The notes under the pieces: model-generated
Databases searched by the model: none
What the model was told of the DNA's origin: nothing
What the model saw: the letters and a program-made list of their open reading frames with translations, nothing else
Origin: Desulfobulbales bacterium
GTDB lineage: Bacteria > Desulfobacterota > Desulfobulbia > Desulfobulbales > BM004
Assembly (NCBI GenBank): GCA_041598875.1
Contig: JBFHXP010000002.1
Span: forward strand, 13,716-77,715
Length of the DNA stretch: 64,000 nt
Reading direction: 5' to 3'
Position numbers and translations under genes: made by a program
Part shown: one piece after another, positions 45,253 to 59,243 of the stretch
Position numbering within the stretch: the stretch's first letter is position 1
Layout of the letters: each line of letters starts with the position of its first letter

Positions 45253-47331
45253 TCAGGACAAGAGCTTCTCGCCCCCCGGCGATGAGATAAACACCTTGAG
45301 GGCGCCAACAATCGCCGGATCATACCTGGTGCTGTCTTTTGCCAGGATCTCGATGGCCTCCCTGGGAGCCAGGGCGGAGCGGTAGGAGCGCGGCCGGCTC
45401 ATGGCGCAGAAACTGTTGGCCACGGCAAGGACCTTTGCCGTCACCCGAATCTGATCGCCCTTGAGACCTTGGGGATAACCGCTGCCGTCACTGTTTTCAT
45501 TCATCTGGCAGATGGTTTCCGAGACTGGAAGTTCGAACTCGATGTCCCGGAGGATATCCTCGGTATACTGCACGTGTTTCTGCATTTCCAGCTTCTCGGC
45601 ATCGGTCAGCTGGCCCGGTTTTGACAGGATCGCCTGGTCGACAAAGACCTTGCCGACCTGGGAAAGATAGGCTGCCAGTTCCACCGTGGCCTGCTCCTGC
45701 CCGTCAAGGCCAAGCTCCTTGGCCACGGCCTTTGAGACAACGCTCATCATTCTGGAATGGCCGGCGAGATAGGGATCCTTCATCTCTATGGTCTTGACAA
45801 AGGCGTTGATTGTCTGCCTGATGGTGCGCTCATTTTTCTCCTGGGCCTCCACCAGATGGGTAATATCGGTAAAGACCGAAACAATACCGGTGATCTCGCC
45901 GGCAGAATCGACAAAGGGGATCTTGGTGATCATCAGGTAATGGAGTTTGGAAAGAAGATAGATCTTTTCGCTGACCGTGACCGGCTCCTTCTTCTGCCGG
46001 ACCTGTTCATCGCTTACCTGAAGCCTTTTCGCGGTGTCATAGCCGAAAACGGCGCGGTCATCCGAGCCGATGATACTCTCCATCTCGCTGTCTACCGCCC
46101 GGGCAAAGGCCGGATTGACATACTGGTAATTGCCGGCATGATCCTTAAAGCCGATGTAGTCGGTAATAGTCGAATTGATGCTGTCCAGGAACTGGCGCTG
46201 GTTTTCAATCTGACCGGCAAGCTCCTTGAATGTCACGGCAATCTTTTTGTTCTCCACACCGATCAACCGCCACCAGGCAGCACCCAGAAGAAGAACCAGG
46301 GCCACCAGGCCAAGAACCGCGATGGCCACAAAGCTCCGCCGGTATTGCCTGAGCGGCCCGTTTGCGCTCTCATAGTCGGTTTCCTGGACAACCCACCAGT
46401 CAAGCTCCGGGACCTTCTGGCCCAGGGAATAGACCATGGTATCGCCCTGCACCGACCGGCGGACCCCGTAGGCCATCCGCCCCTGGTCATTGAGCTCAAT
46501 CGCCTCTATCTCCAGGAGGCCGGATGGGGCCCAGGGGACAATCTCATGAAAGACCCCGTCATCAACCTGAACCAACCGGGCGCGCTCTCCCTCCTGAAAA
46601 AGCGGGGAGACCGCGAGAAGCTCGTCCATTTTCTGGGCAACGATCTTTGACAGCATGAGTACGGCCACCGGATCCGAGGGATTGTCGGTGGCGCCATGCG
46701 GCGGCAGGATCGGCAGATAGATATCGAGCACCATCCCCTTGCTGGTCGACCGCAGGGGCGCGAAACGGATCTCGCGGGAGCTGAACACCGATTGGGCCAG
46801 ATCTTTCTGCCGGGCAGAAAGGGCGATGGTGGAGCTGTCGGTGGCAATATAAGACTGGCCGTTGCGATTGATGACCCGGCCATCGAGAAAACCGGAGTAC
46901 TGGACAAACTCGCTGAGCAGGTTGGTCATCATCGGCAGCTGCTCGGCAAGGCCATCGCCCACCCCTTCCGCCATTCGCTGCGGGTACAGATGCTGGTTAA
47001 CGATGATCGAGACGTCTTCCTCGTGGAGATCGATTTCCGCGGCATAGAGGCGGAATATCTCGGACTGGATAATCCGGTCGCCCTGGGCGGCAAGACCGGC
47101 GAGCCAGGTGGAAATGACCTCCGCGCGGCTATTGGCCAGCAACTCAACCCGTTTTTCCGTGGCCTTTTCCAGTTCGCGGGTCCGGTCGGCTATGTTCAGC
47201 CTGACCAGGAAAAATGCCGCGGCAGACAGGATGATGAGTAAAGGTATGCCCACCTGAAAGACTCTGGCCTTAAGGCCGGCAGGTGACTCAATTTCGTGGC
47301 CCAGGGCTGCTTTTATGATCTGCTTGTCCAT
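45253..47331 (-). CDS. Transmembrane Cache-like/PAS protein with a degenerate HD-GYP domain
   Basis: ORF 45253-47382. ATG 47331 (MDKQ) has a GAGGGG RBS and lies 23 nt after the BTLCP stop. Two TM segments flank a periplasmic region of about 285 aa ending LDWWVVQETDYE (Cache-like), followed by a PAS-like segment. The C-terminal domain reads GHSRMM...AAYLSQVGK...QKHVQY...QMNENSDGSGYPQGL...VANSFCAM. Confidence 0.8.
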   Translation of the reverse strand: MDKQIIKAALGHEIESPAGLKARVFQVGIPLLIILSAAAFFLVRLNIADRTRELEKATEKRVELLANSRAEVISTWLAGLAAQGDRIIQSEIFRLYAAEIDLHEEDVSIIVNQHLYPQRMAEGVGDGLAEQLPMMTNLLSEFVQYSGFLDGRVINRNGQSYIATDSSTIALSARQKDLAQSVFSSREIRFAPLRSTSKGMVLDIYLPILPPHGATDNPSDPVAVLMLSKIVAQKMDELLAVSPLFQEGERARLVQVDDGVFHEIVPWAPSGLLEIEAIELNDQGRMAYGVRRSVQGDTMVYSLGQKVPELDWWVVQETDYESANGPLRQYRRSFVAIAVLGLVALVLLLGAAWWRLIGVENKKIAVTFKELAGQIENQRQFLDSINSTITDYIGFKDHAGNYQYVNPAFARAVDSEMESIIGSDDRAVFGYDTAKRLQVSDEQVRQKKEPVTVSEKIYLLSKLHYLMITKIPFVDSAGEITGIVSVFTDITHLVEAQEKNERTIRQTINAFVKTIEMKDPYLAGHSRMMSVVSKAVAKELGLDGQEQATVELAAYLSQVGKVFVDQAILSKPGQLTDAEKLEMQKHVQYTEDILRDIEFELPVSETICQMNENSDGSGYPQGLKGDQIRVTAKVLAVANSFCAMSRPRSYRSALAPREAIEILAKDSTRYDPAIVGALKVFISSPGGEKLLS

Positions 47332-47354
47332 TTTCCCCTCGCTCTGCTCTGTCG

Positions 47355-48107
47355 TTATTTCTTCAATGGAATATGTGCCCAACGGCTCAACTCATCGAAT
47401 GAATACTGTGCAACATAATGTTTGTATCTGGTGTGCTCAAAGACGCCATCAGTCAAATTATCAAGGATATAGATAGTCTCATCGAGGTACACCGCCAGCA
47501 CCGCATGGGCAATATTCCTGATGGTGTCCCGGACAATCACCACCCGCAGCTGGCCGGGGGCAAACCCCAGTTCCCTAAAGACAAAATATTTGGTGATGCT
47601 GTAATCCTCGCAATCCCCCGAGAGTTTGAGAAACTCCTGGGGGGTCGCCCAGTAATCACCAACCCCGTAGACATCCATATCAAGCCGGTAGGGCCATTTA
47701 TTCACATAGCGGCTGACGAATTTCAACTGCTCGAACCCTTTCAGGGAACGCGCCTGGGCGATCAACTCCTGCCAGCTGGCCGCGCCGGGAGGACACCCCC
47801 CAGAGGCCGATCCGCAGCTGTTCAGGGCCCGCACCTGCTCCTTGACGCTGCCGAGTATCCGGAGCCATTGGGTCAGAACCTTGTGCGATCCCTTGAATTC
47901 AATGGTATCAAGCAGCAGGATCCGTTTCTCCCCCGCGCCTGCATCCTGTTCACTGCCCTGACCCGGTCCGGGCATGGCAAGACCCGCCAGCAGCAATGAT
48001 AATAAAACCACCCTGACGATCACCAACCGACTCCAGCGGCTGCCATGCAAGAGAGAGTGAGCAATATGAGGCATAGAAGAAAAAGCCCTGGAATCGTTTA
48101 AGAACAT
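47355..48107 (-). CDS. Bacterial transglutaminase-like cysteine protease (BTLCP, LapG family), periplasmic
   Basis: 250 aa. Signal peptide, then GDCEDYSITKYFVFRELGF (Cys), HAVLAVY (His) and ILDN (Asp), which is the LapG-type triad context. Confidence 0.8.
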   Translation of the reverse strand: MFLNDSRAFSSMPHIAHSLLHGSRWSRLVIVRVVLLSLLLAGLAMPGPGQGSEQDAGAGEKRILLLDTIEFKGSHKVLTQWLRILGSVKEQVRALNSCGSASGGCPPGAASWQELIAQARSLKGFEQLKFVSRYVNKWPYRLDMDVYGVGDYWATPQEFLKLSGDCEDYSITKYFVFRELGFAPGQLRVVIVRDTIRNIAHAVLAVYLDETIYILDNLTDGVFEHTRYKHYVAQYSFDELSRWAHIPLKK

Positions 48108-48188: not shown

Positions 48189-49508
48189 TCATCGTTCCCT
48201 GAGGGCATTCTGCCTGGCCTTGATGATCGGTTTCAGCAGGTACTCGAGAACCGTTTTTTTCCCGGTCAGGATATCGACGCTTGCGGTCATCCCCGGAATG
48301 ATGGGCAGTTTTTCCCCCCGGTAATTGATCGCATTGGTTGTGGTTCTCAGCTTGACCATGAAAAATTTTTCCCGCCGGTCATCCTCAATAGTATCGGCGC
48401 TGATCTGCTCGACAAACCCTTCCAGGCCGCCATATATGCCATAATCATAGGCAGTGATTTTGACCATGGATTTCTGTCCCGGGTGGAGAAAAGCAATATC
48501 CGCCGGCCGGATTTTCGCCTCGATGAGCAGGGTTTCATCCAGGGGAATGATTTCCAGAATCGACTCCCCGGGCTTGACCACCCCGCCGAGGGTATTGATG
48601 TAGATCTTCTTGACCGTGCCGCGGACCGGCGACCGGACATCCGTTCTGGTTGCCCGGTCCTGCCCGGCAACATTCGCCTCGAGAAGTGATTTCAACTCGC
48701 CCCGCTTCTTGTTCAGTTCAGCCGCTGCCGTTGATTTAAATTCGGCACGGCGCTGCGCCTGGCGGCGCTTGATCTCCTGGGCCGCCTCAACGGCGCGGGG
48801 GATGTTCAATTCCAGGCTTTGTATCTCACCGGTAATGGAATTGATCTCGCGCTCAAGGGAGAGATACTCAACCTTGGGAAATAATTTTTTCTCCACAAGA
48901 GGGGTGGCGATGGCCACCTGCTCCCTGGCCAGTTCGAGGTTCTTTCCCAACTGATCCTTCTTGCTCTCCATCCCGCCTATCTCCTGCATCTTCTGCTGGT
49001 ACTGGGAGTTGAGGATGTTCAGCTCAAGCTGCAGTTGCTCCTTGCGGGCCGCATAGATCTGTTTCTGATCCATGACGATCTGCGGGTCATGTCGGGCAAT
49101 TTCGGCCGGCAGGGAGAGTTCCTGCTCGTTCACCTCCGCCTCCAGCCTGGCAATGGACGCCCGGTGCTCCATTGACTGGGAAAAAGAATCCCGATAATGG
49201 CTGGCAGCCTGTTCATTGCTCAGGCGGACAAGGATATCACCCGGCTGGACAATCTGGTTTTCCCGAACCATGACCTCCTCGAGAATACCCCCCTCAAGAT
49301 GCTGGATGACCTGAACATGACGGGAGGGGATAACCTGTCCGCTGCCCCGGGTCACCTCGTCAAGAACAGCGTAATGGGCCCAGGCGACAAAACAGATAAC
49401 GAGCAGGCAGACCGCAAACGAGAGGAGATAGGCCGCGGAGTTCCCGTGGCGCTGCAGGGCGCTGCTCACCTCGTCCATAAATTCCGCATCCGTTGTTTTT
49501 CTGCTCAC
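48189..49508 (-). CDS. HlyD-family type I secretion membrane-fusion protein
   Basis: 439 aa. N-terminal TM, long coiled coils, and a C-terminal ...PGMTASVDILTGKKTVLEYLLKP typical of HlyD/LapC. Confidence 0.88.
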   Translation of the reverse strand: MSRKTTDAEFMDEVSSALQRHGNSAAYLLSFAVCLLVICFVAWAHYAVLDEVTRGSGQVIPSRHVQVIQHLEGGILEEVMVRENQIVQPGDILVRLSNEQAASHYRDSFSQSMEHRASIARLEAEVNEQELSLPAEIARHDPQIVMDQKQIYAARKEQLQLELNILNSQYQQKMQEIGGMESKKDQLGKNLELAREQVAIATPLVEKKLFPKVEYLSLEREINSITGEIQSLELNIPRAVEAAQEIKRRQAQRRAEFKSTAAAELNKKRGELKSLLEANVAGQDRATRTDVRSPVRGTVKKIYINTLGGVVKPGESILEIIPLDETLLIEAKIRPADIAFLHPGQKSMVKITAYDYGIYGGLEGFVEQISADTIEDDRREKFFMVKLRTTTNAINYRGEKLPIIPGMTASVDILTGKKTVLEYLLKPIIKARQNALRER

Positions 49509-49579: not shown

Positions 49580-51853
49580 TTACGCCTGGCCCGGAACATG
49601 CTGCTGCCTCTGTTCTTTCAGGAACTCCAAGACCTTATCCCTGGGACCATCCACCAGAACCCGGCCCTTTTCCATCACAATCAACCGATCGACAAGCGTG
49701 AGCATTGACTGGCGGTGCGAGACAACAACCAGGGTCTTCTGTTTGAGAACAGAGGCCAGGCGGGACTTGAAAAGCGCCTCCATCAGTGTATCCATGCTGC
49801 TGGTCGGCTCGTCGAGAAGCACAATATCAGGATCACGGACCAGGGCCCGGGCAACGGCAACCGCCTGACGCTGGCCGCCGGAAAGGTTCATGCCCCGCTC
49901 GCCGACCTGAAGCCCGAACCCGGCCGGGTGATTTCGTACAAAATCAGTGACCCCGGCAACGGTTGCTGCCCAGAGAATGGCCGCATCATCAGCAAAAGGC
50001 GCGCCAAAGGCGATATTCTCCCTGATGCTGCCATAAAAAAGATATTTGTCCTGCGATGCATAGCCGATTTTCTGCCGCAACTCGGCCACATCGAGCTGCC
50101 TGATATCCAGACCGCCGACCATGACGCTGCCCGAGGCAGGGGTGTAGAGCCCGAGAATCAGGCGGCCCAGGGTACTTTTGCCGGATCCCATCGGCCCGAT
50201 GATCCCAACTTTTTCTCCGGCGCTGATGTGCAGGGTAACGGTATCCAGGGCCTTGAGTTCGGAACTGGGATAGGAAAAAGAGACCCGGTCAAATGTGATG
50301 CTGCTGCCGATTTTACCATGATGCACATACTCCCTGCCATCGGGCCTCTCGCTGGGGATCTCCATGACCATGTTGAGCGATTTGAGGGCCATGCGCGACT
50401 GCTGCAGCCGGGTCAGCATTGCCGCCACCGCACCCAGGGGGGCCATTGCCCGGCCGACCAGGATGGTGCAGGCGATGAGCCCGCCCATGGTCAGAACCCC
50501 TTCCTTGATCCGAAATACTCCCCAGACGATGACCGCCACACTGACCAGCTGGGTGGCAAACTGTGAAAAGGTGATGGAAAAGGTTGCCAGTGATTTTGCC
50601 TGGGCCGAAGAGCGGGCATTCATGCCCACCACGCTCTCCCACCGCCCCTGGACTCTGCTCTCGGCAGTGCTGGTCTTGATCGTTTCAAGCCCGTTGATCG
50701 CCTCGACAAGAATGGCATTTTTCTGGGCCGACTCCCTGAAACCCTTTTCTATCGCCCGCTGAAATGGAAACTGAATCAGCACGCCAACCAGAATGACAAC
50801 CGGCACGGCAATGGCAGGGGCATAGGCAACCGGGCCGCCGATAAAGGAGACCAGGAGAATAAAAAGCACAAGAAAAGGGATATCCACCAGGGAAAGAAGG
50901 GTGGTGGAACTGAAGAACTCACGCAGTGATTCGAATTCGCGCAGGTTGTTGACCATGGAGCCGGTGGAATCGGGTTTATGGTCCATCTTGATTGCCATAA
51001 CGTGCTGCAGGAGACGACTGGCAAGGATAACATCGGATTTTTTCCCTGCCATATCAACGAAATACCCGCGCAGCAGACGAAGGAGAAAATCAAAGACATA
51101 GGCAATGCACACCCCCACCGCCAGGACCCAGAGGGTCTCAAGGGCATTGTTGGGCACCACCCGGTCATAGACATTCATCACAAAAAGCGGCCCGGCAACA
51201 CCCAGTATATTGATAACAATACTCGCGAGAAGGACATGCTTATAGAGAGGATAAAAGTGGCCGATCGTGCCCCAGAACCATCTCTTGCCCTTGAGCAGTT
51301 GCAGTTTACTGGCCCGGTCATCCAGACGGCCCCTGGCCTGGACAAAAAGCGCCTTGCCGGTATAGAGCGGCTGCAGGGTTTCCAGGGGAACGCTCTGACT
51401 GGTGTCCGGGGTCTCGGCAAAGATCACATCGGCCATGTCCGAGTGTATCCCGCCCAGAACGCAGCTGTTGCCATCCTTTAACAGAAGGATGCACGGCAGA
51501 GTCAGAGGGTTGATCCGGGCTATGGCCGGCCGCTTGAGAATTCGGGCATTCATCCCAGCCTGTTCCGCGGCCCGGACACAGAGATGGGGTGAAAAATCCT
51601 GACCGCTGAGGGGCAGCGAGGCAAGCAGCGCGCTGATTGAAACACTCCTGCCCTTGAGCCTGAGGAGTGTCTCGAGACAGGTCAGCAGGGGAGGCCGCGG
51701 GTCGGCGCTCTGACCGGACGACGGGGCAGCAGAGAGATCGACCTGGCCGGCCCGCTGGGTTGCATTTCCCTGAGAGTCAACAGGGCGAGTCCCGTGGTCA
51801 CCCTTTTCCGGGCCCATGGGTTCTGTTTCCTGAACTGAAGAGGAGGTCTGCAT
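49580..51853 (-). CDS. Type I secretion ABC permease/ATPase with an N-terminal C39-like domain (LapB/LssB-like)
   Basis: 757 aa. C39-like region (LLTCLETLLRLKG...), six TM segments, Walker A GPMGSGKST, signature LSGGQRQ and Walker B IVLLDEPTS. Confidence 0.9.
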   Translation of the reverse strand: MQTSSSVQETEPMGPEKGDHGTRPVDSQGNATQRAGQVDLSAAPSSGQSADPRPPLLTCLETLLRLKGRSVSISALLASLPLSGQDFSPHLCVRAAEQAGMNARILKRPAIARINPLTLPCILLLKDGNSCVLGGIHSDMADVIFAETPDTSQSVPLETLQPLYTGKALFVQARGRLDDRASKLQLLKGKRWFWGTIGHFYPLYKHVLLASIVINILGVAGPLFVMNVYDRVVPNNALETLWVLAVGVCIAYVFDFLLRLLRGYFVDMAGKKSDVILASRLLQHVMAIKMDHKPDSTGSMVNNLREFESLREFFSSTTLLSLVDIPFLVLFILLVSFIGGPVAYAPAIAVPVVILVGVLIQFPFQRAIEKGFRESAQKNAILVEAINGLETIKTSTAESRVQGRWESVVGMNARSSAQAKSLATFSITFSQFATQLVSVAVIVWGVFRIKEGVLTMGGLIACTILVGRAMAPLGAVAAMLTRLQQSRMALKSLNMVMEIPSERPDGREYVHHGKIGSSITFDRVSFSYPSSELKALDTVTLHISAGEKVGIIGPMGSGKSTLGRLILGLYTPASGSVMVGGLDIRQLDVAELRQKIGYASQDKYLFYGSIRENIAFGAPFADDAAILWAATVAGVTDFVRNHPAGFGLQVGERGMNLSGGQRQAVAVARALVRDPDIVLLDEPTSSMDTLMEALFKSRLASVLKQKTLVVVSHRQSMLTLVDRLIVMEKGRVLVDGPRDKVLEFLKEQRQQHVPGQA

Positions 51854-52315
51854 GGTTCAGTTATTCATCATAGGTGAGCATTGTTATTCTGACCTGACAC
51901 CTGAAGTGATAAAACCATACCCAGCAGAGACCTGTTCTGGCAACCGATATCACGATAACCCCTAACCCTTCAGAGACCCCTGGATGGATGTTTCCGGAAA
52001 AAAGGAAAACCCGACCCCTGCCACCCCAAAAGGGGTTTCCCTGCACCACGCCGCGGAACAAGTCTTGACAGCTTTCCTGATTACCACGAAACAACAAGAA
52101 CTTAAGGCACCATGGCGCCTCCGCGAACAGGGGGGGGACCCGCCAGGTTTACCCCAGGGCATGTTCACCTCTATCAGCCCACTTCCGACAATCCGGACAC
52201 TTTCCGGAAATCCACTCGAAAAAAACGAAAAAAACAGGTTCCGAAGTGACCGAAAAACCCGGCTCAAAAACTGATAACACTGATATTGCTCGAAAAAAAC
52301 AAACCCGGAAAAAGT

Positions 52316-52331
52316 TGGCCCGGAAATTGCT
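52316..52331 (+). promoter_or_regulatory. Candidate sigma-54 (-24/-12) promoter
   Basis: TGGCCCGGAAATTGCT matches TGGCAC-N5-TTGCW spacing exactly. It lies about 425 nt upstream of the PEP-CTERM gene. A TCCGGA-N5-TCCGGA repeat at 52192-52208 could be an activator site. Confidence 0.4.
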
Positions 52332-52755
52332 TTATTCTTATCAACCCTTCATACTCACTCGCCTGCTGCCAGGTCCCCTGAGGAGTATGTGTGCCCGCGG
52401 AGCGCAGATAAACGGTCTCACAAAAAAGCCAGATATGTATTGCACAAAAACGGAAAAAATGATAGTGATTTCTCCAGTCTCCTGATTCCAGGTGAAAATT
52501 AGTACATGCTTACACAACAAGATCACCAAAGAGCTTCTGCCCGATCCAGAGTTTGCTGTGCAGGAGGGGTAGTGCACCGCTTCGAACACACCGGTGGTTT
52601 TTTTCAGCAGAAACTAAAAGTCTAACCCAGCAGCAGAACCGCACGTTCGCGAGGCCGGATACTCCCCTTATGCCTGGAAATCTCTGGCGGGTGATATGAA
52701 CAGTGGCCCGGTGCTGTCTGTGTAGCGGTCCGAAAACTTATTTAGGGTATTTGCA

Positions 52756-53502
52756 ATGAAAACACGAGCACTCTTCCTGTCAGTTGGGCTGTCGATCCTT
52801 CTCCTCTCTTCCCCGGCATTTGGCTCGGCTTATACGTATAATGTATCGAGTGTGCGCGATACTGTCACCGGGGGAATGATGGATGGGCTGGAGGTGACTG
52901 CATACTATGAAAACGGCACATCTTCGAACGCATTCTGGGGATACCTGGGCGCACAACCAGGCGCGACCTCAGGTCGGGCTTATGTCTCTGACGGGTATCA
53001 ATTGTTTCAGGGTGGCAACACCTATCTTTCCAACTGGACGCTCACCAATAGCAGTACGAGCAAACTTATCTCCCTGACCATCCAGGGCATGGGCATGGAT
53101 TCAAATAATGAAAGACCACGGGCAAACGTTGTATTTGATTCATTTTATGGGACAGGAACCGGTGCTGACAAACGAACCCCCGGCTCCGAGTTGGGCAGGT
53201 TCATTGCAGATCCCCTTGGAACCAACCCGGTACCCGTTACCTTCCTCTTCTCGGATCCGGTCGCCCATAAGGGAACAGTCTATGGTGACCTCTATGCCAC
53301 CCTCACCCTGACATTTGGCGGGGGTGGTCTTGCGAAATATGATCGTACAACTGCACCAAATAATAAAATTGTTTTCACGGCTGACACGGACAGCATAACC
53401 CCGGTACCAGTGCCCGCAACCCTCTGGCTCCTGGGCTGTGGCATCCTCTCCCTGATCGGTTCAAGGAGAAAGACCGGCAGCAGCCCGCGCCTGAACGCAT
53501 AA
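52756..53502 (+). CDS. Secreted protein with a PEP-CTERM-like C-terminal sorting signal (VPVP variant)
   Basis: 248 aa. Signal peptide (…SSPAFG/S). The C-terminus has TPVPVPATLWLLGCGILSLIGSRRK, i.e. a Pro-rich motif, a TM segment and a basic cluster. Confidence 0.7.
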   Translation: MKTRALFLSVGLSILLLSSPAFGSAYTYNVSSVRDTVTGGMMDGLEVTAYYENGTSSNAFWGYLGAQPGATSGRAYVSDGYQLFQGGNTYLSNWTLTNSSTSKLISLTIQGMGMDSNNERPRANVVFDSFYGTGTGADKRTPGSELGRFIADPLGTNPVPVTFLFSDPVAHKGTVYGDLYATLTLTFGGGGLAKYDRTTAPNNKIVFTADTDSITPVPVPATLWLLGCGILSLIGSRRKTGSSPRLNA

Positions 53503-53539: not shown

Positions 53540-54769
53540 ATGCCAGAATTAAATGCTCCTGCCCAACCATCGACAGCCACCCGTGATAACCTGGTGCGGG
53601 TCGGCAAACCCCAGGCCGGCCAATCCTCGGCACTGGTCCTCGCCCCTGGCGCAGCCATAGCCCTTGACTTTGACATAACCGAGGCCGAGGCGATCCTGCA
53701 AAACGGCGCGTTGATCTTCCGCTTTGCCGATGACAGCGAGATCCAGCTGCAGAACTTTGAGGCCGTGCTTGCCAGCACCGAACTTATCCTTCAGGACGGC
53801 ACTGAAATAAGCGGCGACCAGGTGATGGGGGTTATCCAACCGGGCGGCGACGAACCTGCTGCCGGGCCTGGCTCGACAAGCGGCGGCGCCGGTGAATATG
53901 ACGACTATCTTGGCAGTATAACAGGCCCGATTGAGCGGTTGGGCACCCTTGACCCGCGGCAATTGACCGACCCCCAGACCGATCTCGAAGGGGGCGCGGG
54001 CTTGGTACCACCTGATCCGCCTGAGACACCCCTTGTTCTGGCCGATGACACGGATCTTCTGTATTATGACCGGATCTTGTCTGAACAAGGAGAATTTTCT
54101 GAAGTAGGCAAAATACTACCGATTCTCAAGATATATAATGCCGGGCCAGGCCCGGACGACACCCTCTATGACAGCCACACCCGGGGCAATGTACTGAGCA
54201 ACGACATCGGAGACGGCCTGCGGGTAACCGGCTTTACCCACAACGGTACGACATACGTTGCGGACGGATCGACCGTGACCCTGAGTTCCGGGGCCAGGTT
54301 TTCCCTTGGAGCGGACGGCTCCTACCGCTACGCCTATGATACCACCGAGACGGTTGATAGCACGCAGAGACCAAATTTTAGCACCCTGTCTTTCCCAGGA
54401 CTCAATGCCGGTCACGCTCCTGGACAGGACAAACATGCCATTGCCCGCATTGAGTTATCCGATCTGACCGATGATGACTGGCTCCAATTTGACTGGAGCG
54501 ATACTGCTGGCAACAAACATAATGCCGTATACCCTGAATTCGCCATCCAAAACAACACAGTAGAACTCTATGACCTTGACGGCTTTGCCAGCCTGGACAT
54601 CACGGTCCTTGCTGGGTCTGTCACTTTCGAATCACTCAAGGTGGAATACACCGATTCGACATTGACCAAAGAGACAATCCAGTACCAAGTGACAGACGCC
54701 TACGGCGCCAGCGGTTCGGCCAACCTTATCCTCGACTTTGCCGCAACCAACCCACCGCCCGTGGCGTAA
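53540..54769 (+). CDS. Candidate small LapA-like T1SS substrate/adhesin with a PAAG di-alanine site
   Basis: ORF 53528-54769. ATG 53540 has a GGAG RBS. No Sec signal peptide. The N-terminal LIFRFADDSEIQLQNFEAV region is followed by GGDEPAAGPGSTSGGAG. The C-terminus has a cadherin/VCBS-like YQVTDAYGASGSANLILDF. Confidence 0.5.
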   Translation: MPELNAPAQPSTATRDNLVRVGKPQAGQSSALVLAPGAAIALDFDITEAEAILQNGALIFRFADDSEIQLQNFEAVLASTELILQDGTEISGDQVMGVIQPGGDEPAAGPGSTSGGAGEYDDYLGSITGPIERLGTLDPRQLTDPQTDLEGGAGLVPPDPPETPLVLADDTDLLYYDRILSEQGEFSEVGKILPILKIYNAGPGPDDTLYDSHTRGNVLSNDIGDGLRVTGFTHNGTTYVADGSTVTLSSGARFSLGADGSYRYAYDTTETVDSTQRPNFSTLSFPGLNAGHAPGQDKHAIARIELSDLTDDDWLQFDWSDTAGNKHNAVYPEFAIQNNTVELYDLDGFASLDITVLAGSVTFESLKVEYTDSTLTKETIQYQVTDAYGASGSANLILDFAATNPPPVA

Positions 54770-54949: not shown

Positions 54950-56311
54950 ATGCATAAAAAAATCGCTCTATTCACCGCAATTGCCGTGGCCCTCATACAC
55001 CTGCCGCAGGTTTCATCTGCCGGAGAAACCGTGACAGTGCAACAAAGTGTGATAGATACCCTCACAACCAGCCCGCGCCTGGAAATGATGAAACATAATC
55101 GGACCGCGATCAACCATGACATGGCCAAGGCCCGGGGCGGCTATTTCCCGCAACTTGACGTTGTGGCCGGCTATGGTTTCGGCGCCCATAAAAGCCTGAC
55201 CACCCGAAATGCAGCGGCCACCGCCCCCTATGATGACGACTGGATGGCCCGCAGTGACGCCGCCCTGATTCTGCAGCAGCTTGTTTTTGACGGAAACGAG
55301 GTGAAAAGCCAGGTTGATATTGACCGATTCAAGATAGACTCGATCAATTACCGGGTATTTGACAATGCCGAGGCCCTGGCCCTTGATGCCGCCCTTGCCG
55401 CCCTTGAGGTCTATCGCCAGCAGGAACTGCTCAAGGTTGCCGAGGCAAATGTGGCGGCCCACGAAAAAATTCTCGAATCCCTCAAGGTTATAGAACAGGC
55501 CGGCGCCGGCAGCAGCGCCGATGTCATCCAGACCCGGGCCCGCCTTTCACGGACCATGGCCACCCGGATAACGGTGATGAGCGACCTGGAAACCGCCCTG
55601 TCCAATTTTGAGCGGTTGGTCGGGTATCGGCCGGATACCGTGCAGTTTCCCGAAAATGCCGATGCGGTCCTGCCGGCTTCCCAGGATGAAATTATCAATA
55701 TGGTGATAGCCTCCAACCCGAAATTCCTGGCAGCGGCCTCTGATATCAAGGTCGCCGGGGCGGTGGTCAATCTGGAGAAATCTAAATATTCCCCCAAAAT
55801 ATACCTGGAGGGGGTTCTGAAATATGAAGATGGTACCGATGGGGTGGAAAGCTGGATCAGAGACGAGGGAGTCATGGTCCGGATGCGCTGGAACCTGTTC
55901 AACGGCATGGCGGACGACGCCGCGGTCAAGGCGGCCAGGGCACGCAAACTGCAGGAGGAATTAAACCGGGAAGATATCATCAGAACCATTGCCAACGACA
56001 CCAGGGCAACCTGGTCCAGATACACTGCAGCGGTGCAAACGGAAAAGGCCTTTGCAGAAAACGTCAGCTTCAACGAAGAGACCCGGACACTGTACAGCGA
56101 CCAGTTCTCCATCGGCCAGCGAAGCCTTCTTGATCTTCTCGATGCTGAAAACGAGGCATTCCAGTCCCGGGGCCTCTACACCTCGGCCAAGGTTGACCGC
56201 GCGGCCACGGCCTATAAGCTTCTCGCCCTGCCCGGAAAACTCATAGATACGTTGGGCATCGATTCAGCTATCTACAAAGATCCCAAATATGAAAAGAGCA
56301 GGAAAAACTGA
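54950..56311 (+). CDS. TolC-family type I secretion outer-membrane channel (LapE-like)
   Basis: 453 aa. Signal peptide, then two tandem OEP-type repeats (…RGGYFPQLDVVAGYG…, …KYSPKIYLEG…). Confidence 0.85.
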   Translation: MHKKIALFTAIAVALIHLPQVSSAGETVTVQQSVIDTLTTSPRLEMMKHNRTAINHDMAKARGGYFPQLDVVAGYGFGAHKSLTTRNAAATAPYDDDWMARSDAALILQQLVFDGNEVKSQVDIDRFKIDSINYRVFDNAEALALDAALAALEVYRQQELLKVAEANVAAHEKILESLKVIEQAGAGSSADVIQTRARLSRTMATRITVMSDLETALSNFERLVGYRPDTVQFPENADAVLPASQDEIINMVIASNPKFLAAASDIKVAGAVVNLEKSKYSPKIYLEGVLKYEDGTDGVESWIRDEGVMVRMRWNLFNGMADDAAVKAARARKLQEELNREDIIRTIANDTRATWSRYTAAVQTEKAFAENVSFNEETRTLYSDQFSIGQRSLLDLLDAENEAFQSRGLYTSAKVDRAATAYKLLALPGKLIDTLGIDSAIYKDPKYEKSRKN

Positions 56312-57545: not shown

Positions 57546-58910
57546 TTACACCACGGTATCAAACAGAAAACGCATGGGATTTCGCCAGGTGAGAAGATCG
57601 ATAAGTTCGTTGCGGTCCGGAAGTACCTCCCGCCCGGCCCGGGGCACCTCGCAGGAACCTCTGCCATTTAAGGCGCCAATATCCATGGCTGCAACAAAGC
57701 GCGCGAAATACTGGTCATAGGTGGTAATCAATCCCCCATGTCCTGTGCCGAGAATCATGGGAATATCCGAGCCCCAGAGCAGTTTTTCCTTGAGCGTGCA
57801 GACCGGGTTTTCAATATCGAGCCTGTTGTCAAGCTCCCCGGCCTCATCAAGGGCAAGGAGCCAGCCCAACGCGGCCACCGCCCTGTGATCATTATAGTTG
57901 AACGCCGCCAGATCGGCATAGGTATTTTTGTATGTCTTGAGCAGCCGGATCAGAATGGCGGTCCAGGTGGTTTTTTTCAGCTTTGGCCGCGGAACCATCA
58001 TCGATGTTGCCATGGGAAACGGCGTCTCATCGTACTCCTCCTCCACCTGGTTAAAAAACACGGTCTTTTTCAACTCCTCTTCGCCGCCGAAATGGGCAAA
58101 ATTAATCCTGAAATCATCCGCCCTATCGCCCAGGGCATGCAGGACCGCCCGCCAGTTTGCCGGATGGGTAAAGGCATCTGCCTCCTTTTTTGTGATATCC
58201 TGGGCTGAATAGGAACCAGGCTTGGGCTGGCAATGGGTGGTTACCGGAATATTCCGGTCGCAGAACAGGGTATAGAGGGCCCGGTATTTTCTCGCAATGG
58301 CCGGGGAACCATCAGAGACGCTGTAGGGGTTGAAACCAATGGGCGGGTAGAGCTTGATCCCGATCGGCCTGCCGTTGCCAAGGCCACTGATATCAACCCG
58401 ACCCTGGACAGACCGCAGCACCTCCGCCCCGCACCTCTCTGCAAAGGTGTCAAAATCAGCGGCCAGGGTATCAAGCCGCCATGCCTGGACCTTGCGAAGA
58501 TCAAGACCGACAAAGGGGAGAAAAAGGGCGTCCCCGGCAAACTGAGTATCCCCTATCTCCGAGATCAACCTCTTTGCCTGATAATAGACATGGTCCTTCT
58601 GCGCCCCCTCAATTTCATCAAAGTCCATGATCAGGGGAGTAATGACCGGCCGGCGTCCTGTCAGCGGTGAATGGACGGCCAGCGCCTCGCTGATCTGTTG
58701 CGCCAGGATAACGGCATTATCCCGGGGCCTGCGGTCAAAAAAATTGATATAGCTCTCAAAATTCTTCAACTCCTTTTTATGCAGACCACAGAGAAATGCC
58801 AGGGCAAGAAGTGAGTTGGGCAGAAATCGCACGTTGCCCAGGGTGGGATAGAGGGGAATGTCCTCAATATTGAACAGATGACAATGGGAATCAATAAAAC
58901 AGGCGCTCAT
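57546..58910 (-). CDS. Amidohydrolase-superfamily (TIM-barrel metal hydrolase) protein
   Basis: ORF 57546-59024. ATG 58910 is the likely start (GGAGGGGGG RBS). The N-terminal FIDSHCHLF is an HxH metal motif. Function unknown. Confidence 0.55.
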   Translation of the reverse strand: MSACFIDSHCHLFNIEDIPLYPTLGNVRFLPNSLLALAFLCGLHKKELKNFESYINFFDRRPRDNAVILAQQISEALAVHSPLTGRRPVITPLIMDFDEIEGAQKDHVYYQAKRLISEIGDTQFAGDALFLPFVGLDLRKVQAWRLDTLAADFDTFAERCGAEVLRSVQGRVDISGLGNGRPIGIKLYPPIGFNPYSVSDGSPAIARKYRALYTLFCDRNIPVTTHCQPKPGSYSAQDITKKEADAFTHPANWRAVLHALGDRADDFRINFAHFGGEEELKKTVFFNQVEEEYDETPFPMATSMMVPRPKLKKTTWTAILIRLLKTYKNTYADLAAFNYNDHRAVAALGWLLALDEAGELDNRLDIENPVCTLKEKLLWGSDIPMILGTGHGGLITTYDQYFARFVAAMDIGALNGRGSCEVPRAGREVLPDRNELIDLLTWRNPMRFLFDTVV

Positions 58911-59243
58911 TTCCCCCCTCCTTATTCTCTGTTGCACCTTTCCGCCAACCGCTTTGCGGCCATTTGCGGCCAGTAAGGATCCGGAAATCCCCCCTCGCGG
59001 TATGGTTTCCCCGTCAGCCCACACAAACCTATATCCACGGAACTCTTTTCATTTAGCAGGATTAAAGCCTCTTTTCAAGGGATAAACCCGGACGGAGCAA
59101 GGATATCCCCTTATCGCCAAGGCCCCTTAAATCATCCTCCACGGCACGAAAAATCCTGGCTATTTACCAAGGCCAGGGGATAGTTTATAGAGGGTGTGGA
59201 TGGCGCCCCTTGACCATAATAATCTTCAGCAAAAAAACGAACA

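What the first reader, a model, noticed from the sequence alone, without database searches (positions are those of the whole stretch)
45253..47382. A receptor in the LapD position built on a degenerate HD-GYP domain (SQ...MNE...GYP) rather than GGDEF-EAL
Seen in sequence: the gene starts 23 nt downstream of a LapG-type BTLCP protease gene, on the same strand as the T1SS ABC and HlyD genes. It encodes a two-TM protein with a periplasmic domain of about 285 aa, a PAS-like segment and a C-terminal HD-GYP-family domain. I aligned it by eye to the canonical pattern H...HD.GK...H...HHE..DGSGYP...D..DA. The domain reads GHSRMM (H kept), AAYLSQVGK (HD changed to SQ), QKHVQY (H kept), QMNENSDGSGYPQGL (HH changed to QM/MN, GYP kept) and VANSFCAM (D..D changed to N..C). 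Four of the roughly seven metal ligands are therefore gone while the signature GYP loop remains. Established knowledge: in the Pseudomonas Lap system, lapD lies next to lapG. LapD is a catalytically dead GGDEF-EAL protein that binds c-di-GMP and sequesters LapG in the periplasm. Inference: this protein could be a functional LapD analogue that senses c-di-GMP, or another nucleotide, through a dead HD-GYP domain. I do not know of such an architecture being described for inside-out control of a BTLCP protease. Caveat: the periplasmic domain looks Cache-like (…LDWWVVQETDYE), not like the short LapD output domain. It may simply be a ligand sensor that happens to be adjacent.
Basis: partly seen in the sequence, partly recalled or inferred. 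Interest (0 to 1): 0.85.

Follow-up and report, generated by a model that had tools for sequence, protein, structure and literature searches.

The report
DvhD-type c-di-GMP receptor beside LapG protease
This gene encodes a membrane receptor with a catalytically dead HD-GYP domain next to a LapG-like protease, but it is an orthologue of DvhD from Desulfovibrio vulgaris, whose structure and function were published in 2024 and 2026, so it is a new member of a known system, not a new architecture.

Summary
The sequence observation holds. On the minus strand, a 692-aa protein (ATG 47331, stop 45253) starts 23 nt after a 250-aa BTLCP/LapG-like protease gene and lies downstream of T1SS ABC and HlyD genes. 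Its layout is TM, about 290-aa periplasmic domain, TM, PAS, HD-GYP. The HD motif reads SQ, HH reads MN and the D ligand reads N, while GYP is kept.

The architecture is not new. All three soluble parts match the crystal structures of D. vulgaris DvhD (DVU1020): 9rc0 at E 3e-87, 9rbz at 3e-61, 9rc2 at 2e-52. An AF2 model superposes on them with TM 0.81-0.90. DvhD has the same SQ/MN degeneracy and a dCache periplasmic domain. It binds c-di-GMP at nanomolar affinity, does not hydrolyse it, and restrains the protease DvhG (PNAS 2024; Nat Commun 2026).

The ABC-HlyD-BTLCP-receptor order recurs in 73 of 80 related genome loci. The canonical c-di-GMP contacts are conserved. The 'bridging' site is not (P567 is D, R569 is A), and E668 is D.

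Across the divergent intergenic region lie a TolC-like gene and a 409-aa protein. That protein carries a DvhA-type retention module and a PAAG cleavage motif, so it is a likely substrate.

Verdict: new member of a known kind, low interest.

The parts
45253..47331 (-). dvhD orthologue, 692 aa plus stop: a TM-dCache-TM-PAS-degenerate HD-GYP receptor
   Evidence: ATG 47331 with an RBS, 23 nt after the protease stop. PDB matches are 9rc0 at 3e-87, 9rbz at 3e-61 and 9rc2 at 2e-52, all DvhD. The AF2 model has pLDDT 84. The top three Foldseek hits are the DvhD structures.
46333..47205 (-). periplasmic dCache-like domain (aa 43-333) between TM1 (aa 24-42, nt 47206-47262) and TM2 (aa 334-352, nt 46276-46332)
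   Evidence: Hydropathy. It is 39.5% identical to the DvhD periplasmic domain 9rc2, with TM-score 0.90. Helix aa 126-146 (QLPMMxNLLxEF) is among the most conserved periplasmic stretches.
45853..46167 (-). cytoplasmic PAS domain (aa 389-493)
   Evidence: Pfam PAS_4 at 1.6e-9. It aligns with the PAS of 9rc0.
45310..45801 (-). degenerate HD-GYP domain (aa 511-674). S557-Q558 replace HD, M610-N611 replace HH, N639 replaces D, and G618-Y619-P620 are kept.
   Evidence: Pfam HD_5 at 8e-40. Alignments to 9rbz and 5z7c. Residue tables.
47355..48107 (-). BTLCP / LapG-DvhG-like cysteine protease, 250 aa. It has one N-terminal hydrophobic segment (aa 28-46), D165-C166-E167, H201 and D216.
   Evidence: Peptidase_C93 at 1.3e-19. 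NCBIfam LapG model at 92 bits, below the 320-bit cut-off. LapG structures 4u65 and 4fgo at 8e-21 and 6e-14. Motif positions.
48189..49508 (-). T1SS periplasmic adaptor (HlyD family; DvhC/LapC position)
   Evidence: TIGR01843 at 2e-120, above its cut-off.
49580..51853 (-). T1SS ABC permease/ATPase (LssB type; DvhB/LapB position)
   Evidence: TIGR03375 at 4e-285, above its cut-off.
53540..54769 (+). 409-aa candidate protease substrate. It has an N-terminal beta-rich retention-type module, a short helix, GGDEPAAGPG (fits [T/A/P]AAG), a disordered segment and a C-terminal beta domain.
   Evidence: The N-terminus aligns with the N-termini of large neighbouring proteins in related loci, with a conserved E[PT]AAG...SGGxGEY motif. 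Full HMMER gives 233 relatives, with the match always N-terminal and many of 1000-4460 aa. Giant relatives are T1SS-143/RTX/serralysin proteins. The single-sequence AF2 model is weak, but aa 20-90 reach pLDDT 70-83.
54950..56311 (+). TolC-like outer-membrane channel (DvhE/LapE position)
   Evidence: Pfam OEP at 4e-49. A homologue lies next to the ABC gene in many related loci.

Best explanation
The gene encodes an orthologue of DvhD, the c-di-GMP receptor of the Dvh (Lap-like) adhesin-control system of sulfate-reducing bacteria.

Proposed mechanism, by analogy with D. vulgaris DvhD:
1. The protein is a dimeric inner-membrane receptor.
2. Its HD-GYP domain has lost the metal ligands, so it binds c-di-GMP at the former active site without cleaving it.
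3. Binding splays the stalk helices between PAS and HD-GYP.
4. The change passes through the PAS domain and the transmembrane helices to the periplasmic dCache domain.
5. The dCache domain then restrains the adjacent BTLCP protease.
6. At high c-di-GMP, the T1SS-exported surface protein keeps its N-terminal retention module and stays on the cell.
7. At low c-di-GMP, the protease cuts at the di-alanine site and the protein is released.

The likely substrate encoded in this locus is the 409-aa protein at 53540-54769. Other adhesins elsewhere in the genome may also be substrates.

What is shown here: orthology, domain anatomy, ligand loss, conservation of the nucleotide contacts, and conserved synteny. 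What is inferred from the published D. vulgaris work: binding, lack of hydrolysis, the conformational switch and control of the protease.
For: - **Full-length homology.** All three solved DvhD fragments match (9rc0 3e-87, 9rbz 3e-61, 9rc2 2e-52). Identity is 47% in the cytoplasmic part and 39.5% in the periplasmic part.
- **Structure.** The AF2 model (pLDDT 84) has these three entries as its top Foldseek hits, with TM 0.81-0.90.
- **Same degenerate ligands as DvhD.** S-Q, M-N and N...C. The paper reports the SQ and MN substitutions, no metal at the site and no hydrolysis.
- **Canonical c-di-GMP contacts.** Y523, L577, K582, Y621, M646, R650, Y652 and R653 are all identical in the window protein. 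Y523, L577, Y621, R650, Y652 and R653 are at least 96% conserved in 80 loci; K582 and M646 vary more across the family.
- **Gene order.** ABC-HlyD-BTLCP-receptor matches DVU1017-1020 and recurs in 73 of 80 related loci.
- **Protease.** It keeps the C-H-D triad and the D-C-E calcium motif.
- **Complete system.** A TolC gene and a protein with a DvhA-type retention module plus PAAG motif lie in the same locus.
Against: - No experiment exists on this protein. Everything functional is transferred from an orthologue about 45% identical, in a different order of Desulfobacterota.
- Two of the three residues of DvhD's second ('bridging') c-di-GMP site differ: P567 is D and R569 is A. In DvhD, the P567T mutation weakened c-di-GMP stabilisation.
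- The guanine-specifying E668 is D here and varies freely across the family.
- How DvhD restrains DvhG is still unknown even in D. vulgaris. Only an AF3 model exists.
- The protease here is short (250 aa) and probably has a signal peptide. D. vulgaris DvhG is membrane-anchored with a roughly 180-aa linker.
Confidence: 0.85

Rival explanations
1. It is a DvhD-type receptor whose nucleotide handling differs from D. vulgaris DvhD. It may have only the two canonical sites per dimer and no bridging c-di-GMP. It may also have a shifted preference, for example towards 3'3'-cGAMP, which some Desulfobacterota make with Hypr GGDEF enzymes.
For: - The bridging-site residue P567 is D in the window protein and in 44 of 79 family members. 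R569 is conserved in none.
- The specificity residue E668 is D here and highly variable in the family.
- D. vulgaris DvhD itself binds 3'3'-cGAMP only about five-fold more weakly than c-di-GMP.
Against: - The bridging site in DvhD relies mainly on shape and weak contacts, so residue changes need not abolish it. K520 is kept here.
- D is a conservative replacement for E668.
- Nothing in the window shows that this organism makes cGAMP.
Confidence: 0.15
2. It is an active HD-GYP phosphodiesterase whose activity is set by a periplasmic ligand sensed through the dCache domain. It would lower local c-di-GMP and would not act as a receptor.
For: The HD_5 fold, the GYP loop and two His ligands are retained. 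dCache domains usually bind small ligands.
Against: Five of the seven classical metal ligands are replaced by S, Q, M, N and N. The orthologue with identical substitutions has no bound metal and no hydrolytic activity with any ion tested. The substitutions are fixed across the family, which argues for selection for binding without turnover.
Confidence: 0.03
3. The receptor and the protease are neighbours without functional coupling. The protein would be an unrelated Cache-PAS signalling protein.
For: Three related loci with full flanks (L053, L056, L067) carry a homologue with no BTLCP or T1SS genes within 10 kb upstream; a fourth, L076, has only about 900 nt of upstream flank and also lacks one.
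Against: The BTLCP gene lies directly upstream on the same strand in 73 of 80 loci spanning Desulfobacterales, Desulfuromonadales, Desulfovibrionales and some Alphaproteobacteria. The genes are 23 nt apart here. Functional coupling was shown for the D. vulgaris pair.
Confidence: 0.03

Closest known systems
DvhD (DVU1020) of Desulfovibrio (Nitratidesulfovibrio) vulgaris Hildenborough; PDB 9rc0, 9rbz, 9rc2; Karbelkar et al. PNAS 2024 (PMC10990149); Font et al. Nat Commun 2026 (PMC13090378)
   Same: - It has the same architecture: TM, dCache, TM, PAS, stalk, degenerate HD-GYP.
- It has the same SQ / MN / N..C substitutions and a retained GYP.
- The canonical c-di-GMP contact residues are the same.
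- It has the same gene order after the ABC, MFP and BTLCP genes.
- Its size is similar (692 vs 701 aa).
   Different: - It is only about 40-47% identical, and its nearest relatives are Desulfobacteraceae-type MAGs, not Desulfovibrionales.
- Bridging-site P567 and R569 are D and A, and E668 is D.
- The partner protease is a short 250-aa form without the long linker.
- The substrate encoded in the locus is a 409-aa protein, not a 3000-aa adhesin.
LapD of Pseudomonas fluorescens (LapD_MoxY_N-HAMP-GGDEF-EAL receptor of LapG)
   Same: - It occupies the same genomic position next to a BTLCP protease and T1SS genes.
- It follows the same logic: a catalytically dead c-di-GMP-metabolising domain acts as receptor and signals inside-out to control periplasmic proteolysis of an adhesin.
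   Different: - No domain is shared. There is no LapD_MoxY_N, HAMP, GGDEF or EAL hit.
- The LapD Trp that docks into LapG has no counterpart in DvhD.
- LapD's affinity is micromolar, against nanomolar for DvhD.
Active HD-GYP phosphodiesterases (PmGH 4mcw, V-cGAP3 5z7c, PA4781 4r8z, RpfG)
   Same: It has the HD_5 fold, the GYP loop, the nucleotide-binding Y/R residues and dimerisation through N-terminal helices.
   Different: The metal ligands HD, HH and D are replaced, so no di- or tri-metal centre can form. The orthologue is inactive.

Membership tests
DvhD-type c-di-GMP receptor | Two TM helices flanking a periplasmic dCache-fold domain of about 290 aa | tested here: met
   TM segments at aa 24-42 and 334-352. 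The match to the 9rc2 periplasmic domain is 2e-52, with TM-score 0.90 and rmsd 2.2 Å.
DvhD-type c-di-GMP receptor | Cytoplasmic PAS, helical stalk and HD-GYP module | tested here: met
   PAS_4 and HD_5 hits. The match to 9rc0 is 3e-87 over aa 375-691. Predicted stalk helix at aa 491-518.
DvhD-type c-di-GMP receptor | HD changed to SQ and HH changed to MN (loss of metal ligands) with GYP retained | tested here: met
   S557-Q558, M610-N611, N639 and G618-Y619-P620. The same pattern is seen in 66-76 of about 79 family members.
DvhD-type c-di-GMP receptor | Canonical c-di-GMP contact residues (Y523, L577, K582, Y621, M646, R650, Y652, E668) | tested here: met
   Seven of the eight are identical and E668 is D.
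DvhD-type c-di-GMP receptor | Bridging c-di-GMP site (K520, P567, R569) as in the D. vulgaris crystal structure | tested here: not met
   K is kept, but P567 is D and R569 is A. P567 occurs in only 30 of 79 family members and R569 in none. This is therefore a feature of a subclade and does not define the family.
DvhD-type c-di-GMP receptor | Encoded directly after a BTLCP protease gene in a T1SS (ABC-MFP) cluster | tested here: met
   The arrangement is conserved in 73 of 80 loci. It matches the order DVU1017-1020.
DvhD-type c-di-GMP receptor | Binds c-di-GMP with sub-micromolar affinity, does not hydrolyse it, and restrains the protease | not testable with these tools
   This is known only for D. 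vulgaris DvhD.
LapD | Periplasmic LapD_MoxY_N domain and cytoplasmic HAMP-GGDEF-EAL | tested here: not met
   The Pfam scan at E<=0.01 found only HD_5, HD, HDOD and PAS families.
Active HD-GYP phosphodiesterase | Complete H...HD...H...HH...D metal-ligand set | tested here: not met
   The alignment to V-cGAP3 (5z7c) shows HD as SQ, HH as MN and D as N.
LapG/DvhG BTLCP protease (neighbouring gene) | Peptidase_C93 domain with the C-H-D triad and the calcium-binding D-C-E motif | tested here: met
   PF06035 at 1.3e-19, above its cut-off. D165-C166-E167, H201 and D216 align with LapG structures. It scores below the NCBIfam LapG equivalog cut-off (92 vs 320 bits), so it is a family member and not a strict LapG equivalog.
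LapA/DvhA-type T1SS substrate (53540-54769) | N-terminal retention module followed by a helix and a [T/A/P]AAG site; C-terminal T1SS signal; usually more than 1000 aa with repeats | tested here: inconclusive
   The retention-type module and PAAG are present and homologous to the N-termini of giant T1SS-143/RTX proteins. The protein is only 409 aa, has no RTX or repeat hits, and no secretion signal could be tested.

The most novel reading that the evidence does not exclude
This orthologue may represent a mechanistic variant of DvhD found in the Desulfobacterales and Desulfuromonadales. It would lack the bridging c-di-GMP site (D in place of P567) and carry a different residue at the guanine-specifying position. 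It could therefore switch with 1:1 stoichiometry or respond to another dinucleotide such as 3'3'-cGAMP. It would control a family of unusually small (~400 aa) retention-module proteins instead of giant adhesins.
Probability: 0.2. Interest if true: 0.4.

Novelty: new member of a known kind. Interest (0 to 1): 0.2.

Why it matters
The general idea is that a dead HD-GYP domain replaces LapD's dead EAL domain as the c-di-GMP receptor controlling a LapG-type protease. That idea is interesting, but it is already published with genetics, binding data and crystal structures.

What this window adds is modest:
- It shows that the complete Dvh-type module (receptor, protease, ABC, MFP, TolC, candidate substrate) exists in a lineage whose nearest relatives are Desulfobacteraceae MAGs.
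- The family survey made here shows that the receptor-protease pairing and the dead-ligand pattern are conserved well beyond Desulfovibrionales, including some Alphaproteobacteria.
- It also shows that the crystallographic 'bridging' c-di-GMP site is not conserved across the family.
- A family of ~400-aa proteins carries the adhesin retention module and cleavage motif.

These points could guide follow-up work on DvhD. They do not change the picture.

Tried and rejected
- **The look-up of encoding contigs for the window protein.** Nothing is on record, so the source organism could not be named. The cluster look-up gave no names either. Taxonomy is inferred only from the nearest homologues.
- **Word-index homology search with the 409-aa protein.** It found only itself. 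The full HMMER search and the related loci were needed.
- **NCBIfam and Pfam on the 409-aa protein.** No retention-module or T1SS-signal model hit. There was only a weak Big_9 match.
- **Single-sequence AF2 of the 409-aa protein.** Mean pLDDT was 47.8. Only the N-terminal beta domain and a C-terminal beta domain reached 70-83. I did not run a fold search on it.
- **Rfam over the whole window and, permissively, over the 900-nt divergent intergenic region.** No c-di-GMP or cGAMP riboswitch was found; the only hits were two tRNAs elsewhere.
- **Promoter and terminator scan.** Counts were no higher than in shuffles, so nothing is claimed.
- **First mafft --keeplength mapping of DvhD numbering.** It was off by one because an insertion was dropped. 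I redid it.
- **Galperin & Chou 2022 HD-GYP survey.** It is not held in the library.
- **Complex prediction for the dCache domain with the protease.** I considered it, but the structure tool takes single chains only.
Full report
**What is in the sequence**

The finding's coordinates hold a minus-strand gene. The mechanical ORF list gives 45253..47382 (TTG, 709 aa). That start overlaps the upstream gene. The sequence shows an ATG at 47331 preceded by GAGGGGAAAA, 23 nt after the TAA stop of the upstream gene. The product is 692 aa.

Three genes lie upstream on the same strand:
- a 250-aa BTLCP (Pfam Peptidase_C93, 1.3e-19);
- a HlyD-family T1SS adaptor (TIGR01843, 2e-120);
- an LssB-type T1SS ABC exporter (TIGR03375, 4e-285).

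The 692-aa protein has two hydrophobic segments, aa 24-42 and 334-352. It has a PAS_4 domain at aa 389-493 and an HD_5 (HD-GYP) domain at aa 511-674, E 8e-40.

- HD is S557-Q558.
- HH is M610-N611.
- The D of D..D is N639, and the second D is C642.
- The two single His residues (H525, H586) and the GYP loop (618-620) are kept.

So five, not four, of the seven classical ligands are replaced.

**What it is**

A literature search for LapG, LapD and HD-GYP together found two papers that describe this architecture.

- Karbelkar et al., PNAS 2024 (PMC10990149). [quoted passage not shown] It encodes a membrane protein with a large periplasmic region, a PAS domain and a predicted inactive HD-GYP domain. 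Its cytoplasmic part binds c-di-GMP with Kd 322 nM. It lowers DvhG-dependent adhesin release in a reconstituted P. fluorescens strain, in step with c-di-GMP levels.
- Font et al., Nat Commun 2026 (PMC13090378). [quoted passage not shown] It states that the HD motif reads SQ and the double His reads MN. It found no bound metal and no hydrolysis. c-di-GMP splays the stalk helices, which suggests inside-out signalling.

The window protein is an orthologue of this protein, on four lines of evidence.

1. *Sequence.* A search of PDB sequences returns the three DvhD entries as the best hits, and together they cover all its soluble domains. These are 9rc0 (PAS/HD-GYP, 3e-87, aa 375-691), 9rbz (HD-GYP, 3e-61) and 9rc2 (periplasmic domain, 2e-52, aa 60-319). 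Active HD-GYP enzymes follow far behind. Identity is 47% over the cytoplasmic part and 39.5% over the periplasmic part.
2. *Structure.* An AF2 model built on 28 family sequences has mean pLDDT 84. Its top Foldseek hits in the PDB are the same three entries, with target-normalised TM-scores of 0.81, 0.90 and 0.85.
3. *Gene order.* ABC, adaptor, protease, receptor is the order of DVU1017-DVU1020.
4. *No LapD features.* There is no LapD_MoxY_N, HAMP, GGDEF or EAL match.

**Family and neighbourhood survey**

The protein database holds 216 relatives at E<=1e-10. The nearest are 56-64% identical and unnamed. Named ones come from Desulfobacteraceae, Desulfobacterales, Desulfuromonadales, Desulfovibrio, Halodesulfovibrio and Desulfomicrobium.

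A scan of one genome per species returned 80 loci. I searched them with the window's proteins.
- A BTLCP gene lies directly upstream on the same strand in 73 of the 80. Where the contig reaches far enough, it is preceded by the HlyD and ABC genes.
- Of the seven exceptions, three have too little upstream sequence to tell (L032, L044, L079).
- L076 has only about 900 nt upstream and shows no BTLCP.
- Three have full flanks and lack the genes (L053, L056, L067).
- The family also occurs in a few Alphaproteobacteria (Kiloniellaceae, Pelagibius, Rhodospirillaceae).

**Residue-level comparison with DvhD**

DvhD numbering is the window residue number plus 2 in this region.

*Canonical c-di-GMP site.* Y523, L577, K582, Y621, M646, R650, Y652 and R653 are all identical in the window protein. 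Y523, L577, Y621, R650, Y652 and R653 are conserved in at least 96% of the 80 loci; K582 and M646 vary more across the family.

*Degenerate ligand positions.* These are close to fixed: S559 in 74/79, Q560 in 76/79, M612 in 74/78, N613 in 66/78, N641 in 71/78.

*Two differences stand out.*
- E668 gives DvhD a hydrogen bond to the guanine amino group. It is D here, and this position varies freely across the family, with E in only 10 of about 77.
- The second, 'bridging' c-di-GMP site of the D. vulgaris crystal uses K520, P567 and R569. The window protein has K, D and A at these positions.
  - Across the family, P567 is present in 30 of 79 members, mostly Desulfovibrionaceae and the alphaproteobacterial clade. 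D is present in 44, and R569 in none.
  - A P567T mutant of DvhD lost c-di-GMP stabilisation.
  - Whether this orthologue binds a third nucleotide per dimer is therefore open.

**The partner protease**

It is 250 aa, with one N-terminal hydrophobic segment (aa 28-46) followed by A-M-P-G. This looks like a cleavable signal peptide, which is an inference, since no predictor was available.

It carries D165-C166-E167, H201 and D216. These align with the calcium motif and the C-H-D triad of LapG structures 4u65 and 4fgo.

D. vulgaris DvhG differs. It has a transmembrane helix and a disordered linker of about 180 residues. The 2026 paper notes that most DvhG orthologues instead have signal peptides. 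The window protease is of that common type.

**The rest of the system**

No giant adhesin lies in the window. The largest ORF nearby is DNA polymerase I, which is convergent with the receptor gene. Across a 900-nt divergent intergenic region lie three plus-strand genes.

- *A 248-aa protein.* It has a signal peptide and a weak PEP-CTERM tail.
- *A 409-aa protein (53540-54769).* It has no family hit.
- *A TolC-like channel.* Pfam OEP at 4e-49.

The 409-aa protein reads, after about 100 residues, GGDEPAAGPGSTSGGAGEYDDYLG. This fits the [T/A/P]AAG cleavage consensus of LapG and DvhG. The evidence that it is a substrate-type protein is as follows.
- Its first ~150 residues align with the N-termini of proteins encoded next to TolC in 22 related loci, several of them over 900 to over 1800 aa. 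They share a conserved E-[PT]-A-A-G...S-G-G-x-G-E-Y motif, and [TAP]AAG is present in 18 of the 22.
- A full HMMER search with its first 160 residues found 233 cluster representatives. The match is nearly always at the N-terminus, and many are 1000-4460 aa.
- Three of the giants are T1SS-143-repeat proteins. One (3032 aa) also has RTX and serralysin-like C-terminal matches, which is the architecture described for DvhA.
- The four nearest relatives are also short (399-449 aa) and keep the motif.
- A single-sequence AF2 model is poor overall (47.8). It still gives a beta-rich domain at aa 20-90 (pLDDT 70-83), a helix at aa 92-98, then disorder across the PAAG site. This is the layout described for the SRB adhesin N-termini.

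I read this as a probable short substrate of the protease. That is an inference, and secretion could not be tested.

**Mechanism proposed**

By orthology, the receptor is a dimer. It binds c-di-GMP at the dead active site and changes stalk geometry. It transmits this through the PAS domain and the membrane to the dCache domain, and so restrains the protease at high c-di-GMP. At low c-di-GMP the protease cuts the retention module off its substrate.

The 2026 paper's AF3 model places the protease on helix alpha1' of the dCache domain. In the model made here, the matching helix is aa 126-146. Its motif QLPMMxNLLxEF ties for the most conserved 15-residue stretch of the periplasmic domain. This is consistent with the published model but does not prove it.

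Only the anatomy, the conservation and the synteny are shown here. Binding, lack of turnover and protease control are transferred from D. vulgaris.

**Rivals**

- *Active phosphodiesterase.* The ligand losses, and the inactivity of the orthologue with the same substitutions, argue against it.
- *Chance adjacency.* It is excluded by synteny.
- *A nucleotide-handling variant.* This is the most credible variant reading: a DvhD-type receptor with no bridging site, or altered specificity, for example for 3'3'-cGAMP. D. vulgaris DvhD binds cGAMP about five-fold more weakly than c-di-GMP. I give it about 0.15-0.2.

**Other checks**

- No riboswitch or other Rfam family lies in the locus.
- Promoter- and terminator-like sites are no more frequent than in shuffles.
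- The rest of the window carries ordinary chromosomal genes: Mrp/Nuo-type antiporter subunits, PntAB, FeoB, Mpl, PBP2/RodA, ferrochelatase and PolA.
- The source organism could not be named.

**Verdict**

The architecture is already described and structurally solved, so this is a new member of a known kind. Interest is low (0.2). The by-products are modest:
- the non-conserved bridging site;
- the variable specificity residue;
- the wider taxonomic spread of the family;
- the family of ~400-aa retention-module proteins.

Noticed in passing
window 53540-54769 (+): A 409-aa protein has a DvhA-type N-terminal retention module and a GGDEPAAGPG site that fits the LapG/DvhG cleavage consensus. Its closest relatives (P0123-P0126, and the homologue in L004) are also only about 400-450 aa. 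More distant relatives with the same N-terminus are giant T1SS-143/RTX adhesins. This may be a family of unusually small protease substrates.
   Followed up: partly
window 52756-53502 (+): A 248-aa protein has an N-terminal signal peptide and a C-terminal VPVPATLWLLGCGILSLIGSRRK tail (a PEP-CTERM-type sorting signal; weak hits only). It lies between the T1SS operon and the candidate substrate. A homologue sits in the same place in the two closest loci (L004, L068).
   Followed up: partly
L060, L064, L074, L075, L077, L078, L079 (Kiloniellaceae, Pelagibius litoralis, Rhodospirillaceae): An alphaproteobacterial clade of DvhD homologues keeps SQ but has H at position 613 and D at position 641 (DvhD numbering). 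It is less degenerate than the deltaproteobacterial proteins. Wherever the contig reaches far enough upstream (six of the seven loci; L079 has only 240 nt), the homologue is still encoded after a BTLCP gene, and after T1SS genes where the flank extends that far.
   Followed up: no
L053, L056, L067 (uncultured delta proteobacterium MAGs): These DvhD homologues have full 10-kb upstream flanks but no BTLCP, HlyD or ABC gene nearby. L056 and L018 read A-H in place of S-Q at the HD position. They may be orphan or repurposed receptors.
   Followed up: no
window 51854-52755: A 900-nt divergent intergenic region lies between the T1SS ABC gene and the PEP-CTERM gene. It has no Rfam match even at E<=1, and its promoter-like sites are not above chance. 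It is unusually long for a bacterial intergenic region.
   Followed up: partly
window 57546-59024 (-): A 492-aa ORF has no NCBIfam hit and only a sub-threshold Amidohydro_2 match (E 6e-4).
   Followed up: no
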